From the IMG/VR virus record IMGVR_UViG_2526164669_000027: 48,145 nt of DNA; one strand, given 5' to 3'. A program made the translations under genes and the position numbers. Below are positions 4,066 through 34,794 of this stretch, piece after piece. The notes under the pieces are model-generated. The model was not told the DNA's origin. It saw only the letters and a list, made by a program, of their open reading frames with translations, and ran no database searches. Origin of the DNA: a virus (lineage: Duplodnaviria > Heunggongvirae > Uroviricota > Caudoviricetes). Each line of letters opens with the position of its first letter. The first letter of the stretch is position 1.

Positions 4066-7000
4066 TCAGCTAATCGTGATGCCTGCAGTGGCTTTCTTCA
4101 TCACCACAACCAGCAAATCGCTGATACTTGCTGTGGGATACCAGTTATTTACCAGCCATGCTGACACCGAAAACTCCAGTGTCATGTGACCGTGACCGGC
4201 AGGCATATCAATAACACCACTGTAAATCAGCGTATTATCCAGCGCGGTACGGTTATAAATTTCAGCACCGTTTTTCCGTACTATCAGACGGCATGAGGAG
4301 TAAATATCAGTATACTCTTTCTCATGTTTAGCGCCGCTGAATGCCACCGCCGGAATAACAATCTGCCGGTCAAACGGCTGATCGTCATAAACCCTGACGG
4401 TAATGGTTCCTGATGGCCACCGCTCCGGTGCACGGGAGTCCCGGGGGAAAGCTTTGCCCACTGTTTTAACGAGATCGCCTTCAATCTGGTTGGCGGACAA
4501 TTTTCCCAGAACCCGACAGTTCTCGTTAATCGTGACGTTGTTGAGCGTCCCGGAGTTCGCATTCACGTTACCGCTGATATCGGCATTTTTCGCCGTCAGC
4601 CGCCCGTCCGGTGTCAGGGAAAATGCCGGAGGATTACCGCCGCTGGTAATGGTCGGAGCCGTCAGGCGTTTCAGGAACACGTCGTTCATGAATACCTGGT
4701 TGCCCTGCGCCACAAACATCGGAGTGGTGTTGCCATTGGACGGATCAATAAACGCGATACGGTTAGCGGCAACCAGGAACTGGCTCAGTTTGCCTTCCTC
4801 CGTGTCCTCCATGCTGAGGCCAAGTCCCGCGACATAATGCTTACCGTCTTCGGTCTGCTCAATTTTGACGCCCCACATGGCATTCCATTTATCGTTGGCG
4901 TCTTTCCACTCTTTCGAAAACTGATCCAGTCTGCTGGCGTTATCTTCCGTCAGGTCGACTTTTTCCAGCAGCTCCTTGCCGAGATGGGATTCGGTTATCT
5001 GGCCTTTGAAAAAATCCAGGTAACCTTCCGCATCATCGCTCGCCCGACCGACAGCCTCCACAAATGCCGATTTGCCAACAGTGTTCACACTACGGATATA
5101 AAAATAATAATCATGGCCCGGTTTGATATTGATACTGGCGGCTATCCAGTACAGCGCCGTGCCAAGATAGCGGGCTGTGGTTTCAACCTGCCTGATATCC
5201 GCAATCCGCTTTTCCGAGAACCAGAACTCAAACTGTACCGTCGGATCATAAACGGCAAGATGCGGCGTGGCGGTTATCTGAAAATAGCCCGGCGTCAGCT
5301 CAATCCGCGACGGTGCTGCCGGTGCGGCAATCCGGAACGATACCGATGCCGGATCGCCCTGCTGCCCCCAGGCATTTGCCGCCCGGACTGTCAACCTGTA
5401 GTTTCCCAGCGCCAGTTGCGTGAAGCGGTATGTGGTTTCCGTCGTCCGGGCCGTGCTGACCAGCCGCTCACTGCCGTCGTCTGCTGCCACAGTCAGGCGA
5501 AGCATAAAGCTCACACCCTTCACCACCTTCGGCGTGTCCCATCGCGCCAGCACCTGATATTCCCCGCTGTCTGCAGTGACTTCGGCGGTCAGATGCTGCA
5601 CTGCTGGCGGCGTGACACCCTTCACCGTGCCGCTCTGGTCACCGTCAAAGTGCGCCCCGTTATCCACGATGGCCTCTTTCTCCGGCACATGCTGCACGGC
5701 AGTGATGGCATACGTGCCGTCGTCGTTCTCACGGATACTCACGCAGCGGAACAGGCGCTGGCGCAGCGTCGGCAGCTTAAGCCCCCACACGCTGTATTCA
5801 GCAACACCGTCAGGAACACGGCTCACTTTTACCTTCACGCCGTCGGTGACGGACTGAACCTCCACGCTGACCGGATTGCCACTTCCGTCAACCAGGCTTA
5901 TCAGCGTGGTACCGGAGGGTGGCAGCATGATTTCACGGTCAAGCGTCAGCGTCCGGGTCTCGCTGTTCACCGCCAGCACGCGACCACCGGTACTGATACC
6001 GGCATAGTCATCATCGCAGACTTCAATGACGTCACCCGGTACATGGCGAAGCCCTTCTGCACCCACGCTGAAGTCCACCGTCTGCGTTTCCAGTAGTTCC
6101 GTTTTAATCAGCCACAGCCCGGCGCGGTGTGCCTGCCCCCGGCTGGTACAGCCAAAGGCATCCATCTTCGTAACATTACGACCGTAACGGGCAATGGCCT
6201 GCGTATCTTCAACAAGCTCTGTCGCCGTCTCCCAGCCGTTGTTCGGGTCAATCCAGTTCACCTCAACGGCATTATGGCGGTCCTTCAGGGCGCTGAAGCT
6301 GTAGCGGAACGGCGCGCCATCATCCGGCATCACCACATTACTGCGGTTATAGGTCCACGCCTTATCCGACGGTCGGTCCTGCACGAACGTCAGCGTCTGC
6401 CCGTTCCATACCGGCATACAGCGCATCGCCGAGCAGAAATCGCTGAGCACATCCCACGCCTTACGCTGTGTGGTCAGGTACGCATTACAGGTGATGCGCG
6501 GCTCCGTGCCGCCAAAGCCGTCCGGCACTGACTGGTCGCAGTACTGGCCGATGACATACAGCGCCCATTTATCCACATCTGCCGCACCAAGACGTTTCCC
6601 CATGCCGTAGCGTGGATGGGTCAGCATATCCCACAGACACCAGGCCATGTTGTCGCTGTACGCAGGCTTAAACGTTCCGTCCCAGATACCGCTGTATTGC
6701 CGCGTCTGCGGGTTATAGTTCGACGGCACCTGCAGAATGCGCCCGCGAAGATGATAATTACGACTCACCTGCTGGCTGCCGAACTGCTCCGAGTCCACCT
6801 GTACACCGACCAGTGCCGTGTTCGGGTAGCCCTGTTTCACATCGATGATTTCGGTGTATGACGACCAGAGCGTTTTGTTCTGCAGCTGGTCTGTAGTGCT
6901 GTCCGGCGTCATTCTGCGCATCCGGATATTAAACGGGCGCGGCGGCAGGTTACCCACCACCACCGAGGCCAGATACTGCGAGGTGGTTTTGCCCTTAATG

Positions 7001-16172: not shown

Positions 16173-17201
16173 TTATTTCACCTGAACCACCACAAACGCG
16201 TCTGGATCCGGCAACACCATCAACGGCGCAGACTGCGTCATGGTATATTCGCACCCCGGGTCCCCCACCTCTAACCAGTGTTTCGGATAACGAATTGCAG
16301 AGGTGATCCCTTCACTCAGCGCCTGGTTATCCTGGATTGCGCCATAACAACGGACACCCTCCACCTGAGTGTTTCCAAGAATCAGTGTGCCTTCCGGCAG
16401 ATAACGCTGCTCATCCCCGTTTTCATCAACATACGTTGTTTTCGCCACCATGATGGCCAGATCACCGTAATAACCTTTAAAAGAAACCACGGACCCCAGA
16501 TCTTTCAGCGCGGTTTCCAGTTCAGATTTTGAGCCACGGCGGGTATCCAGTTTTTCACGAAACAGTTTAAAACCGTTCAGCATACGCCAGACAGTACCGT
16601 CCATAATCGCAATATTGATGGTACCGGAAGCAAAATCGCAGTACGCATCCAGATCATGCGTCGGATCAAAGGTGTCAGCATTCTGTTTTGACCATTCGCG
16701 TCCCCCTGCCTGCGTAATGTTATTGGCGGCAGAACGTCCAAAATCCACTTCCACCGTCTCAAACTGTTCACCGCTCATGGTGTACTTACCCTGCAGAACA
16801 GCGCTGACCGCCTGCATTTCTTCCACCTGCACAATCGCTTGCTCTTCCTGTTTCAGGTTGTCAGTCAGAATACGCAGGCGACGGTAGGCCGGGTCATTAA
16901 GACGGGCCGGATCTTCCCCCGGAAGACGCTCCACCGCCTGCTGATAATCCAGCCGGTGTTTTGGTTTAACATAGCCGGGGCGTAACACGCGGGTTTCACC
17001 ACCACGACTGCGCAGTACCTTACCTGACACAACCGGAGACACATATGCCGCAACCGGTGTTTTTCCGGTGATTTTATCCAGCATCACTTCCTGAGTATGG
17101 AAAGTGACCGTACGACGAAAAAACAGCTCCAGAAACAGCGCACGGAATTTCACTTTCTGCTCGGTGTAGCCGAGCAACTGACGCGTGGTAAATAACCCCA
17201 T
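16173..17201 (-). CDS. E: major capsid protein E
   Basis: MGLFTTRQLLGYTEQKVKF...YVSPVVSGKVLRSRGG resembles lambda E; AAGGAAAG RBS. Confidence 0.9.
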   Translation of the reverse strand: MGLFTTRQLLGYTEQKVKFRALFLELFFRRTVTFHTQEVMLDKITGKTPVAAYVSPVVSGKVLRSRGGETRVLRPGYVKPKHRLDYQQAVERLPGEDPARLNDPAYRRLRILTDNLKQEEQAIVQVEEMQAVSAVLQGKYTMSGEQFETVEVDFGRSAANNITQAGGREWSKQNADTFDPTHDLDAYCDFASGTINIAIMDGTVWRMLNGFKLFREKLDTRRGSKSELETALKDLGSVVSFKGYYGDLAIMVAKTTYVDENGDEQRYLPEGTLILGNTQVEGVRCYGAIQDNQALSEGITSAIRYPKHWLEVGDPGCEYTMTQSAPLMVLPDPDAFVVVQVK

Positions 17202-17270
17202 AATTGACTTTCCTTTAAAAACACAAACGGGCCGCATCACGACCCGTTTTTTCAGTTAATCACTTCACCA

Positions 17271-17606
17271 TCAGGCGTGGCTGATGGCACTTCCCACAAA
17301 CGCGTTGGCTTTTTTCACCGCATCCACCGAATCCGGCCAGACCAGCGATTCGGTGGCAAACGTACCGCTTTTGTAGTACGTCAGTGTGGGCTCGGTCCCG
17401 GCCAGCGCCAGTACCAGCACCCCCACAGCCGTTCCGGCTTTCTGACCATCCCATGCCACCAGTTTTCCGCTGGCGTCATCCAGCATCAGTGGCGTCAGTG
17501 CAGGCGTGGCAACACTGATACCACTGGTACCTGTTGCGGTATATACCGGATCGCTTCCGGCAAAAATGCGCCCGTCCGCGCGCTTTTCTGTGGTGGTTTT
17601 AATCAT
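17271..17606 (-). CDS. D: head decoration protein D
   Basis: ..TPLMLDDASGKLVAWDG.. resembles lambda D; ATG at 17606 with AGGAGA RBS. Confidence 0.9.
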   Translation of the reverse strand: MIKTTTEKRADGRIFAGSDPVYTATGTSGISVATPALTPLMLDDASGKLVAWDGQKAGTAVGVLVLALAGTEPTLTYYKSGTFATESLVWPDSVDAVKKANAFVGSAISHA

Positions 17607-17646
17607 TTTCTCAGTCTCCTGATTTATCTGAATCACGGATCCCCGC

Positions 17647-19263
17647 TTACGGCATACTCATCAGCAGTTCTTCTTCCCCGTTCCCGGCAGTTCCGCCACC
17701 GGAAACGGCACTGGCGGCATGCTGTGCCATGAAGCGCTCAAAAAGTGTTACCTGTGACGGTTGCGATACTGATGGCGCAGCTGCCAGCAGCGTTTTCGCC
17801 TGCTCCACTGTCATTCCAGGTTGTTCAGCCAGCGCCTGTGCCAGTTTTTCGCGTCCTTTTGCTTCCGGCAACGCAATAATTTGATCGCCGGTACTTGCCG
17901 TACCGGTTGCCGGTGCCGCTGCCAGTAGCATTTTCGCCTGTTCCACCGTCATTCCCGGCTGTTCAGCCAGCGCCTGTGCGAGTTGTTCACGCCCTTTAGC
18001 TTCCGGCAACGCCATAATCTGCTCGCCGGTACTTGCCGCACCGGCAACCGGTGCCGCTGCCAGTAACGTTTTCGCCTGCTCCACCGTCATTCCCGGCTGT
18101 TCAGCCAGCGTCCGTGCCAGTTGTTCACGTCCTTTTGCTTCCGGAAGTGCCACAATCTGATCGCCTGTGCTGTCAGTACCGGCAACCGGTGCTGCCGCCA
18201 GTAATGTTTTTGCCTGCTCAACTGACATTCCCTGCTGACCTGCCAGCATCTGCGCCAGTTTTTCGCGTCCTTTCGCCTCCTGACAATTCAGGATCCCCAT
18301 CACGCGCTGATTTTCCTGGGACACCGCTTCAGCAACGGTGAGATTTTTTGTTGTCATCGTATTCTCCTGTGTAACAGAGTCGTTCAGAGCAGAAACCATT
18401 ACATCAACGGCATCTGCAGCATTAATCAGTTGATCAGCCAGGCCTGTATCAATGCCTGCCTGACCGTCATAAACGGCAGCCTCAGTATTCATCACCACCG
18501 CTGAACTCAGCCCCGTATAAAGTGCCACCTTGTCGACAAACATCCGGCGGGCCTCATCAATACGGAGCTGAAAATCCGCACGCACACCTGTCGGCAACGC
18601 CTGAATACTGTTGCCGTCAACCTTGTGCTGCCCGGAGTAAATCAGCGTGATATCCACGCCTTCCTGTGCCAGTTGTTTCTCGTAACTGGTGTGCGCCATC
18701 ATCACACCAATCGAACCAATTTTTGCCGTCTGCGTGACCAGCCGACGCGTACAGGCCGCCGCCAGCAACATGGCGGCTGAACAGGCCATGTCATTACACA
18801 GCGCCCACACGGGCTTCTGTTCCCGCAGACGGTAAATCATGTCAGCACAGTCAAACGCCCCGGCAGCCTGACCGCCCGGACTGTCGATATCCAGTAAAAT
18901 GCCGCGTACATCCGGGTCGTTCACCGCTGACTTAAGACGGGCAGTCAGACCGTCATAACCGGTCATACCGGAATATGGCCGCAGGGTACCCATTTTATGT
19001 ACCAGCGTGCCGCTCACCGGCAGAATGGCAATACCATTTTTCACCTGGTAACTCTTTACCGGACGCGGACCACCAGTCATATAATCGGTAACCGCCAGCT
19101 GCATACCATCGGCATCAAGCTGAACGGCCTGCTGCGGAACGGCAAGGCTGCCCGCCCCCATCTCCTTACCCAGTGCGCAAAAGAAAACCCGCGCATAGGC
19201 GGGTTCCAGTAAAAGCGGCTCATTAAATGCCATCGCGGCAATATGTGATAAATTACAGCGCAT
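17647..19263 (-). CDS. C: head maturation protease / scaffold protein C (S49 peptidase family, Nu3-like C-terminal part)
   Basis: N-terminus ..HIAAMAFNEPLLLEPAYARVFF.. matches lambda C; C-terminal part carries four in-frame 46-aa repeats. Confidence 0.85.
   Translation of the reverse strand: MRCNLSHIAAMAFNEPLLLEPAYARVFFCALGKEMGAGSLAVPQQAVQLDADGMQLAVTDYMTGGPRPVKSYQVKNGIAILPVSGTLVHKMGTLRPYSGMTGYDGLTARLKSAVNDPDVRGILLDIDSPGGQAAGAFDCADMIYRLREQKPVWALCNDMACSAAMLLAAACTRRLVTQTAKIGSIGVMMAHTSYEKQLAQEGVDITLIYSGQHKVDGNSIQALPTGVRADFQLRIDEARRMFVDKVALYTGLSSAVVMNTEAAVYDGQAGIDTGLADQLINAADAVDVMVSALNDSVTQENTMTTKNLTVAEAVSQENQRVMGILNCQEAKGREKLAQMLAGQQGMSVEQAKTLLAAAPVAGTDSTGDQIVALPEAKGREQLARTLAEQPGMTVEQAKTLLAAAPVAGAASTGEQIMALPEAKGREQLAQALAEQPGMTVEQAKMLLAAAPATGTASTGDQIIALPEAKGREKLAQALAEQPGMTVEQAKTLLAAAPSVSQPSQVTLFERFMAQHAASAVSGGGTAGNGEEELLMSMP
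17775..18310 (-). repeat. four tandem in-frame 138-bp repeats within gene C
   Basis: Marker GCCAG(C/T)A(G/A)CGTTTTCGCCTG recurs at about 17783, 17921, 18059 and 18197 (138-bp period); protein repeat EAKGRE(K/Q)LAQ..PGMTVEQAKTLLAAAP. Confidence 0.8.
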
Positions 19264-33801: not shown

Positions 33802-34794
33802 TCAGAATGTTAAGTTGTCACTGGATTTACCGAATTCGTCAGACATGGCACCAAGACCAGACAGGATATCTATCTGTCGCTGTCGCCCACCTCCGGGAGC
33901 GGCTGGCTGTTGCCAGAAATCTTCGAAGTGACGATCGGGTCCAAAAAACGTCGCGGTCTGCTTCACGAATTGTGTGCCGGTATTTCCTGTGGCACGTACC
34001 CAGGCGGCATAACGCCTCACGCCATCAAGCATGGTTTCGGGTGTCACACCTTCCCTGATTCGGGCTTTCCAGGCTTTGAAGGCTGCCGACTTGGAATTAC
34101 CACCAGCACGTTTGGGGTATTCCTGCCAGGCCTGTTCAAATTCCGGTGAATATTCCTGTCGGGCAGAACGCGCTGGTGCAGACGCGTCAGCGGATGCGCC
34201 AATAGTGTTTTTAGTCTCCGTTGTAATCTCTGTAGTAATCTCTGTATTTGTATCAACATTCGGCGTATCCCCTGTTCCGTTATGACGTTGGGGGGTGTTC
34301 CGTTTTAACGTAATAGCTGTGTCGCTGACTGTGTTATTGCTGTTACTTTCTGACGAAACAGAAGAAGGTGTGGTGATGGCAGCAATTGCCTGTGGGTTGA
34401 TCCCGACAAACAAAATATTGCTGCATTTCACACCATCGAGCATTTCCACAGTGCGTAAATCCAGGGTAATAAAACCGGCATCCCGCAGACGCTTCAGCGC
34501 ATCTGCAGTTTCCCTTTTCCCGAAACCAAACTGCTCAGCAAACGCCTGATAGCTTCTTTGCAGCTTGTCCCCCTGAAAACGCTTGCGATATCCCAGCAAA
34601 GCCCCGGTATGCTCATCCCGGACTTCTGTCGGGCGGTACCAATAAACGATCTCTGAGAGCAGGGCGATAGCGGTCGCATCCGGACGACCACTGGGTAGCC
34701 GAATATGTTTCCACCAGTTCGCTGGTGTGACATTGCCGGAAATATTAATTTGACCAATAGCTATAACTTCCGGTGTGGGGGCGTAACGACTCAT
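33802..34794 (-). CDS. replication initiation / replisome organiser protein (lambda O analogue)
   Basis: Position immediately upstream of loader and helicase; internal direct repeats (iteron-like) in the middle of the gene. Confidence 0.8.
   Translation of the reverse strand: MSRYAPTPEVIAIGQINISGNVTPANWWKHIRLPSGRPDATAIALLSEIVYWYRPTEVRDEHTGALLGYRKRFQGDKLQRSYQAFAEQFGFGKRETADALKRLRDAGFITLDLRTVEMLDGVKCSNILFVGINPQAIAAITTPSSVSSESNSNNTVSDTAITLKRNTPQRHNGTGDTPNVDTNTEITTEITTETKNTIGASADASAPARSARQEYSPEFEQAWQEYPKRAGGNSKSAAFKAWKARIREGVTPETMLDGVRRYAAWVRATGNTGTQFVKQTATFFGPDRHFEDFWQQPAAPGGGRQRQIDILSGLGAMSDEFGKSSDNLTF
34223..34246. repeat. iteron-like tandem repeat GTAATCTCTGTA x2 inside the O-like gene (putative origin)
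   Basis: Two perfect 12-bp direct repeats followed by a partial third (TTTGTATC); encodes ..TEITTEITTE.. Confidence 0.5.

What the first reader, a model, noticed from the sequence alone, without database searches (positions are those of the whole stretch)
17775..18310. Four in-frame 138-bp tandem repeats inside the head protease/scaffold gene C
The 46-aa unit EAKGRE(K/Q)LAQ(M/T/A)LA(G/E)QPGM(S/T)VEQAK(T/M)LLAAAP... is repeated four times in the scaffold-like C-terminal part of the gene. It may be a copy-number-variable locus (useful as a typing marker) and could affect scaffold length or protease processing.
Basis: seen in the sequence. Interest (0 to 1): 0.45.

Follow-up and report, generated by a model that had tools for sequence, protein, structure and literature searches.

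The report
Repeated scaffold module in prophage head gene
The head protease/scaffold gene of this lambda-like prophage carries four tandem copies of a small helical module that lambda has once and phage 21 three times; the array is real, selected at the protein level and varies in copy number, but repeats of this kind were already annotated in phage 21.

Summary
A 138-bp, in-frame tandem array lies at 17773-18309 on the minus strand, with three full 46-aa units and a fourth of 31 aa. It sits in the C-terminal part of a 538-aa S49 prohead protease, the lambda gpC homologue. It also lies in a nested Nu3-like scaffold ORF of 236 aa that has its own AGGAG-ATG start.

The unit is the conserved core of lambda-family scaffolds. 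It is predicted as a small, confident three-helix module joined by flexible linkers. Lambda has one copy, phage 21 and Gifsy-1 have three, and this clade has four. Nine complete E. coli genomes have five, and one close relative has three through an apparent unit 2/unit 3 crossover.

Each copy is under strong purifying selection (core dN/dS 0.04-0.19, dS up to 1.5), so the array is neither a neutral VNTR nor an assembly artefact. Units 2-4 were re-amplified or homogenised in this lineage.

GenBank M81255.1 already marks the phage 21 equivalents as 'Tri boxes', function unknown. This is therefore a new member of a known kind.

My best mechanistic guess is inferred, not shown: the modules act as multivalent binding units of the scaffold. 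Use as a typing marker is limited.

The parts
17647..19263 (-). Gene for the 538-aa S49 prohead protease with a C-terminal scaffold region (lambda gpC / phage 21 gp5 homologue)
   Evidence: ORF. Pfam Peptidase_S49 at aa 146-290, E 1.5e-32. phrog_53 head maturation protease, E 1e-219. RefSeq annotates the same 538-aa CDS in strain VG35A2.
17647..18357 (-). Nested in-frame Nu3-like scaffold ORF of 236 aa (MTTKNLTVAEAV...), sharing frame and stop with the protease gene
   Evidence: The ATG at 18357 is preceded by AGGAG with a 6-nt spacer. Phage 21 gene 6 and its annotated RBS occupy the same position. Stand-alone database proteins start at the homologous position. Expression was not tested.
18364..18368 (-). 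Shine-Dalgarno AGGAG for the nested scaffold start
   Evidence: Sequence read.
18142..18309 (-). Module 1: leading helix QRVMGILNCQ, core EAKGREKLAQMLAGQQGMSVEQAKTLLAAAP and linker. It is orthologous to unit 1 of phage 21 (81%) and of Gifsy-1 (73%).
   Evidence: AlphaFold helices at Nu3 residues 8-23, 32-39 and 46-55.
18004..18141 (-). Unit 2 (46 aa): EAKGREQLARTLAEQPGMTVEQAKTLLAAAP + VAGAASTGEQIMALP
   Evidence: Core dN/dS against the other units is 0.09-0.19.
17866..18003 (-). Unit 3 (46 aa): EAKGREQLAQALAEQPGMTVEQAKMLLAAAP + ATGTASTGDQIIALP
17773..17865 (-). Unit 4, core only (31 aa): EAKGREKLAQALAEQPGMTVEQAKTLLAAAP
17647..17772 (-). Unique C-terminal tail (SVSQPSQVTLFERFMAQHAASAVSGGGTAGNGEEELLMSMP, then stop). 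The LFERFM...LLMSMP motifs are shared with phage 21 and Gifsy-1 and resemble lambda LDRLM...DLLNTPV.
   Evidence: Alignment. Tail comparison.
19253..20824 (-). Lambda-family portal gene immediately upstream (context)
   Evidence: Pfam Phage_portal_2, E 2e-95.
17271..17636 (-). gpD-type head decoration gene immediately downstream (context)
   Evidence: Pfam HDPD, E 3e-22.
16173..17240 (-). gpE-type major capsid protein gene (context)
   Evidence: Pfam Phage_cap_E, E 8e-65.

Best explanation
The array is a tandem, in-frame amplification of the conserved core module of lambda-family (Nu3-type) head scaffolding proteins.

Shown:
- It lies in the C-terminal region shared by the S49 prohead protease (gpC homologue) and a nested Nu3-like ORF that has its own RBS and ATG.
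- Each unit is predicted to fold on its own into a small three-helix module. Low-confidence linkers join the modules like beads on a string, and a conserved C-terminal tail follows them.
- Single copy is the norm across the family. Three to five copies occur only in an enterobacterial lambdoid sub-lineage.
- Every copy here is kept by purifying selection on the protein.
- Copy number changes in steps of one unit. One three-copy relative carries a unit 2/unit 3 hybrid.
- Units 2-4 are more alike than their counterparts in phage 21 and Gifsy-1, which indicates lineage-specific re-amplification or homogenisation.

Inferred:
- Units are gained and lost by unequal homologous recombination or replication slippage between the 138-bp repeats.
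- The module is the interaction surface of the scaffold, binding the capsid protein, the portal or other scaffold molecules. Several copies would then give one scaffold or protease molecule higher valency and reach inside the procapsid, without changing capsid size.
- The flexible linkers may also be where the protease cuts the scaffold for removal.
For: - Gene identity and context.
- Nested start: AGGAG-N6-ATG, at the same place as the annotated phage 21 gene 6 and its RBS.
- Repeat statistics.
- Structure: the single-unit AlphaFold model has pLDDT 86 (92 over the first 40 residues) and pTM 0.64, with helices at 2-7, 16-23 and 30-39. The whole 236-aa model has unit cores at pLDDT 85-93, linkers below 50 and pTM 0.30.
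- Family spread: the unit profile hits 1330 50%-identity clusters. Of the best 150, 120 have one copy, 25 two, 4 three and 1 four. Lambda gpC has a single copy.
- Copy counts.
- Five-copy alleles: nine complete genomes match a five-copy query colinearly at 99.5-100% identity. Four-copy genomes span about 139 nt less.
- Selection: core dN/dS is 0.04-0.19 with dS 0.24-1.5.
- Recombination: unit 2 of P0123 equals the N-terminal part of window unit 2 joined to the C-terminal part of unit 3.
- Array-specific linkers, such as VAGTDNTG three times in A34 and GGTSAPVS three times in P0161, show concerted evolution.
- Unit 1 is orthologous across phages (81% and 73%). Units 2-4 are 89-92% alike but only 54-68% identical to phage 21 and Gifsy-1 units 2 and 3.
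- Capsid size: the capsid protein is 97% identical between the four-copy and five-copy phages. Genomes with 1-3 copies are all 43-54 kb.
- Lambda Nu3 is reported to interact with itself and with C, E and B (PMC3224144).
Against: - No direct evidence shows what the module binds.
- The conserved tail, rather than the module, could be the capsid-binding element. The module might then serve only for self-association or spacing.
- The total length after the protease domain overlaps between single-copy proteins (149-313 aa) and multi-copy proteins (184-313 aa). That fits a length or spacer role as well as a valency role.
- Expression of the nested ORF is inferred by analogy with lambda and phage 21.
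- The three-copy hybrid P0123 comes from short-read (Logan) contigs and could be an assembly collapse.
Confidence: 0.65

Rival explanations
1. Assembly artefact: the true array has fewer or more units and was expanded or collapsed by the assembler.
For: Short-read assemblies clearly struggle here. Many deposited 'S49 family peptidase, partial' proteins end or begin inside the array, for example P0074 with 2623 members, P0071 with 380 and P0067 with 412. The three-copy P0123 is known only from Logan contigs.
Against: The four units differ at 11-41% of nucleotides, so they can be told apart within a read. The same four-copy sequence is colinear in one piece at 99.0-99.8% identity in independent complete genomes, with 7 records at >=99% in the summary, and about 99 records carry it at >=84%. 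The reading frame, the purifying selection and the conserved tail are all intact.
Confidence: 0.03
2. Neutral minisatellite (VNTR) tolerated in a disordered, dispensable part of the protein. Copy number would drift without functional consequence and serve only as a marker.
For: Copy number differs among close relatives (3, 4, 5) and changes by whole units. My recollection, not checked here because the paper was not held, is that lambda Nu3 has been described as largely disordered in solution (Medina et al. 2011, title seen).
Against: Core dN/dS is 0.04-0.19 despite dS up to 1.5. The invariant EAxGRE...A...L motif is kept in every copy and across 1330 clusters. Each unit is predicted as a confident folded module. 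Phage 21 and Gifsy-1 keep three old, position-orthologous units. All 36 full-coverage records seen in detail in this clade have four copies.
Confidence: 0.1
3. Spacer or ruler with cleavage sites. What matters would be the total length and flexibility between the protease domain (or scaffold N-terminus) and the capsid-binding C-terminal tail, plus protease-cleavable linkers that let the scaffold be cut into small peptides for exit. The units themselves would bind nothing.
For: Single-copy proteins have a longer protease-to-unit linker (median 93 aa, range 67-191) than multi-copy proteins (53-56 aa). Two-copy and one-copy proteins have a similar total length (186 against 176 aa). Linkers have low pLDDT. 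The tail motifs are conserved.
Against: A mere spacer would not need an invariant EAxGRE motif and a folded core under strong purifying selection in every copy. Total length still rises to 233, 273 and 313 aa with 3, 4 and 5 copies.
Confidence: 0.2
4. DNA- or RNA-level element: the 138-bp repeats ('Tri boxes') are binding sites or structures that act in cis, for example in regulation, packaging or recombination, and the coding repeat is secondary.
For: GenBank M81255.1 annotates them as repeat_region features with 'function unknown' rather than as protein domains.
Against: Synonymous sites have diverged heavily between units (dS 0.24-1.5) while the peptide is conserved. In phage 21 and Gifsy-1 the units are recognisable mainly at the protein level. 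The unit occurs once, as protein, in more than a thousand clusters.
Confidence: 0.03

Closest known systems
Phage 21 genes 5/6 with 'Tri1 box, Tri box, Tri3 box' repeats (GenBank M81255.1, head gene operon; also OL657228.1)
   Same: It has the same gene pair: an S49 protease with a nested scaffold gene and its own RBS. The repeat occupies the same position, has the same unit family (EAKGRE..LA..PGMTVE.A..LAAxP) and a 46-47 codon spacing. Unit 1 is 81% identical to the window's unit 1. The tail motifs FEHFM...MLMAMP are shared.
   Different: Phage 21 has three old, diverged units that are 51-57% alike. The window has four, and its units 2-4 are 89-92% alike and are not orthologous to phage 21 units 2 and 3 (54-62%). 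The N-terminal protease part is only 70% identical.
Lambda gpC protease / gpNu3 scaffold
   Same: The architecture and genome position match: portal, C with nested Nu3, D, E. Lambda has an S49 domain, the catalytic-region motifs CSA and HKVDGN, one copy of the same module (GILNCEEAHGREEQARVLAETPGMTVKTARRILAAAP) and an analogous tail (LDRLM...DLLNTPV).
   Different: Lambda has a single module preceded by a low-complexity segment of about 55 aa, and its Nu3 is 131 aa against 236 aa here.
Gifsy-1 STM2605 (Salmonella prophage gpC homologue)
   Same: It has three tandem units at the same place. Its units 1 and 2 are orthologous to those of phage 21 (73% and 78%).
   Different: It has three copies, which are diverged, and a different tail ending (LLMSIPGTSAT).
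P22 gp8 scaffolding protein C-terminal helix-turn-helix coat-binding domain (functional analogy only, from general knowledge)
   Same: It is a small helical element in the C-terminal part of a scaffold protein that mediates capsid assembly. This is the kind of role I infer for the module.
   Different: No sequence or fold match to any PDB entry was found. The module here is not at the extreme C-terminus and is repeated. It is not a member of that family.

Membership tests
Lambda gpC/Nu3-type prohead protease with nested scaffold | S49 (SppA/ClpP-like) serine peptidase domain in the N-terminal two thirds | tested here: met
   Pfam PF01343 at aa 146-290, E 1.5e-32, 113 bits against a cutoff of 24.9. 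The CSA and HKVDGN motifs align with lambda gpC.
Lambda gpC/Nu3-type prohead protease with nested scaffold | Gene order: portal (lambda family), protease/scaffold, gpD-type decoration, gpE-type capsid protein | tested here: met
   Pfam Phage_portal_2, HDPD and Phage_cap_E on the neighbouring ORFs. RefSeq shows the same order in VG35A2.
Lambda gpC/Nu3-type prohead protease with nested scaffold | In-frame internal translation start giving a separate scaffold protein | tested here: inconclusive
   AGGAG-N6-ATG at 18357 lies at the position of the annotated phage 21 gene 6 RBS and start. The sequence signal is present, but expression cannot be tested with these tools.
Lambda gpC/Nu3-type prohead protease with nested scaffold | Conserved Nu3 core motif (I..IL...EA.GRE..A..LA...GM.V..A...LAAAP) followed by a C-terminal tail | tested here: met
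   Invariant columns E, A, G, R, E, A, A, L in an alignment of 29 scaffolds. phrog_8399 head scaffolding protein is matched in four stretches.
Phage 21 'Tri box' tandem repeat | Tandem in-frame repetition of the core unit, about 46-47 codons, within genes 5/6 | tested here: met
   Period 138 nt with four units. Phage 21 boxes lie at 5542, 5682 and 5823. The HMM finds 3 units in phage 21 and 4 here.
Phage 21 'Tri box' tandem repeat | Unit-by-unit orthology with the phage 21 array | tested here: not met
   Only unit 1 is orthologous (81%). Units 2-4 are 54-62% identical to phage 21 units 2 and 3 but 89-92% identical to each other. The array was rebuilt in this lineage.
VNTR / typing marker | Copy number differs among closely related strains or elements | tested here: met
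   Nine complete genomes have five copies and about 99 records have four. P0123 has three copies and P0122 and P0124 have five.
VNTR / typing marker | High variability and wide presence, so that it discriminates strains | tested here: not met
   All 36 full-coverage records sampled have four copies. Only 108 of 5426 complete E. coli genomes carry the clade.
P22-type scaffold helix-turn-helix coat-binding domain | Structural similarity to the solved domain | tested here: not met

The most novel reading that the evidence does not exclude
The roughly 40-aa EAxGRE three-helix module is an undescribed, widespread domain. It occurs in 1330 clusters and has no Pfam or NCBIfam model. It would be the actual capsid- or portal-binding unit of lambda-type scaffolds and prohead proteases. 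Its copy number would be an evolvable valency setting that an enterobacterial lambdoid lineage keeps at 3-5 by repeated unequal crossover under selection. Natural 1-, 2-, 3-, 4- and 5-copy alleles with nearly identical capsid proteins would then form a ready-made series for testing how scaffold valency controls procapsid nucleation and fidelity.
Probability: 0.3. Interest if true: 0.5.

Novelty: new member of a known kind. Interest (0 to 1): 0.3.

Why it matters
How lambda-type scaffolds (Nu3) contact the shell is still poorly defined. This analysis identifies the repeated unit as the most conserved, foldable part of the scaffold region. It also shows that nature supplies alleles with one to five copies on similar capsid backgrounds, which gives a direct handle for experiments on scaffold valency.

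In practice, the array breaks short-read assemblies. Thousands of truncated 'S49 peptidase, partial' entries in the databases end or start inside it. The array should therefore be checked with long reads before copy number is interpreted. As a strain-typing marker it has little value.

Tried and rejected
- Sequence search of the 236-aa scaffold against PDB found no hits even at E 10.
- Foldseek of the whole 236-aa model against PDB gave only meaningless hits at E > 3, as expected for a beads-on-a-string model.
- BFVD returned only other S49 prohead proteases (probability 0.96-0.98, E about 0.6). That confirms the family context but adds no function.
- Pfam and NCBIfam gave only sub-threshold, spurious hits on the repeat region, such as Peptidase_C23, T2SSK, HU, L34 and YmfL. 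I rejected these as compositional matches.
- Literature: the original phage 21 head-gene paper and the gpNu3 biophysics paper (PMC3247018) are not held. Searches for scaffold repeats and copy number returned nothing relevant.
- A capsid-size ruler was considered and judged unlikely. The capsid protein is 97% identical between the four-copy and five-copy phages, and genome sizes are similar across phages with 1-3 copies.
- The antisense ORFs over the array (18033-18341 + and 17277-17732 +) were dismissed. The substitution pattern fits the minus-strand frame.
- The first word-indexed protein search returned mostly truncated entries. The full-length query was needed to obtain lengths.

Full report
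**Observation**

Tandem Repeats Finder reports a single strong array at 17780-18280, with period 138, 3.6 copies, 84% matches, no indels and score 659. The repeat finder sees 231-nt copies at 138-nt spacing. Identity at lag 138 over 17773-18310 is 80%. The background for 929 equally long segments of the window is 26.4% +/- 2.5%, with a maximum of 33.8%.

The array lies on the minus strand inside the 538-aa ORF 17647..19263. The units begin at codons 329, 375, 421 and 467. Three units are full length (46 aa). The fourth keeps the 31-aa core and then continues into a unique 41-aa tail.

**What the gene is**

The ORF has a Peptidase_S49 domain at aa 146-290 (E 1.5e-32). It sits between a lambda-family portal gene, a gpD-type decoration gene and a gpE-type capsid gene. 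PHROGs assigns it to the head maturation protease family, and the head scaffolding family is matched in four separate stretches.

The window as a whole is a lambdoid prophage. It carries a tail fibre gene, J, a tape measure gene, head genes, a gpA-type terminase, a methylase, DnaB and an integrase.

An in-frame ATG at 18357 is preceded by AGGAG with a 6-nt spacer. This is the position where GenBank M81255.1 annotates phage 21 gene 6, the Nu3 homologue, together with its RBS. The array therefore belongs both to the protease and to a nested 236-aa scaffold protein. Expression of the nested product is inferred, not shown.

**The repeat is already on record in a relative**

An HMM built from the window's units finds three units in phage 21 gp5 and three in Gifsy-1 STM2605. 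It finds four in the window and in strain VG35A2, four in strain A34 and five in STEC313.

**Copy number across the family**

| Copies | Where found |
|---|---|
| 1 | Lambda-type scaffolds of 131-137 aa; lambda gpC itself |
| 2 | Some 451-aa proteins |
| 3 | 68 of the 120 best full-length homologues |
| 4 | 40 of the same 120, nearly all 538 aa |
| 5 | 2 of the same 120 |

The lambda gpC module reads GILNCEEAHGREEQARVLAETPGMTVKTARRILAAAP.

A profile of the unit searched against 1.84 billion representative proteins finds 1330 clusters at E <= 0.001. Of the best 150, 120 have one copy, 25 two, 4 three and 1 four. The ranking favours multi-copy proteins, so single copy is clearly the norm. In single-copy proteins the unit lies about 35-90 aa from the C-terminus.

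In complete E. coli genomes about 99 records carry a colinear four-copy array. Nine genomes carry a five-copy allele that matches a five-copy query in one piece at 99.5-100% identity: STEC005, 313, 316, 367, 719, 383, 308, 307 and 306. The four-copy genomes span about 139 nt less.

The locus is therefore polymorphic but not hypervariable. Only about 2% of complete genomes carry this clade.

**How the array evolves**

A three-copy close relative (P0123) has a second unit made of the N-terminal part of the window's unit 2 joined to the C-terminal part of unit 3. This is the product expected from an unequal crossover. The sequence comes from short-read contigs, so an assembly collapse cannot be excluded.

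Linker sequences are array-specific: VAGTDNTG three times in A34, GGTSAPVS three times in P0161 and AASAAGTG three times in P0152. That pattern indicates concerted evolution.

Unit 1 is orthologous across phages, at 81% to phage 21 unit 1 and 73% to Gifsy-1 unit 1. Phage 21 unit 2 matches Gifsy-1 unit 2 at 78%. The window's units 2-4 are 89-92% identical to each other but only 54-68% identical to phage 21 and Gifsy-1 units 2 and 3. The downstream part of the array was therefore re-amplified or homogenised in this lineage.

**Selection**

Nei-Gojobori estimates between the window's units give core dN/dS of 0.04-0.19, with dS of 0.24-1.5. Each copy is old enough to have accumulated many synonymous changes, yet its peptide is conserved. 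This argues against three alternatives: a neutral minisatellite, a DNA-level element and an assembly artefact.

**Structure**

A single unit, modelled with an alignment of 41 units, has pLDDT 86 (92 over the first 40 residues) and pTM 0.64. Its helices lie at residues 2-7, 16-23 and 30-39.

The full 236-aa model repeats this module four times. Linkers have low confidence, pTM is 0.30, and a C-terminal helix covers LFERFMAQH.

**Mechanism**

- **Shown:** the position, the architecture, the copy-number states, the selection on each copy and the predicted modular fold.
- **Inferred:** the module is the interaction unit of the scaffold. Lambda Nu3 is reported to interact with itself, C, E and B (PMC3224144). 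Tandem copies would raise the valency or reach of each scaffold or protease molecule inside the procapsid.

Capsid size is unlikely to change with copy number. The capsid protein is 97% identical between the four-copy and five-copy phages, and genomes of phages with 1-3 copies are all 43-54 kb.

A spacer or cleavable-linker role is the main rival. Single-copy proteins have longer linkers between the protease and the unit (median 93 aa against 53-56 aa). Total C-terminal length also overlaps between the classes.

**Verdict**

This is a real, functional and moderately copy-variable domain array in the scaffold/protease gene of a lambdoid prophage. It is a four-copy member of a kind already annotated in phage 21. 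Its interest is modest, mainly as a natural allelic series for studying scaffold valency and as a known trap for short-read assembly.

Noticed in passing
L006:5001-5594 (Bradyrhizobium, GCA_040548125.1) and L007: A stand-alone 197-aa protein with two copies of the same scaffold module lies in a small integrase-bearing element. Next to it are a 297-aa protein with no PHROG match and a PhageMin_Tail protein. No S49 protease, portal or terminase lies within 5 kb. It may be a satellite or defective element with its own scaffold-like protein.
   Followed up: partly
window 37973-38860 (-): An ORF with IS3-family transposase domains (rve, HTH_21) sits inside the prophage early region. This suggests an IS insertion in the prophage.
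   Followed up: no
window 27517-27589 (-) and 27807-28853 (-): A tRNA-Gly(TCC) gene is carried within the prophage next to an N6/N4 DNA methylase gene.
   Followed up: no
database proteins P0074, P0071, P0067, P0070, P0108, P0002 and others: Thousands of deposited 'S49 family peptidase, partial' sequences end or start inside the repeat array; the P0074 cluster alone has 2623 members. Short-read contigs routinely break at this locus.
   Followed up: partly
L004 (E. coli A34) versus window 17647-17772: In strain A34 nucleotide similarity to the window stops exactly at the end of the fourth unit. The tail is only 46% identical, while the N-terminal protease part is 85% identical. The array edge therefore looks like a mosaic or recombination boundary.
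   Followed up: partly
window 34215-34246: There is a short 12-bp tandem repeat (TCTCTGTAGTAA, 2.7 copies) in the replication/early region. It may be an iteron-like element.
   Followed up: no
genomes STEC316 and STEC719 (NZ_CP041431.1, NZ_CP041411.1): Each of these chromosomes carries both a four-copy and a five-copy allele, in two different prophages. This gives scope for inter-prophage recombination at the array.
   Followed up: no
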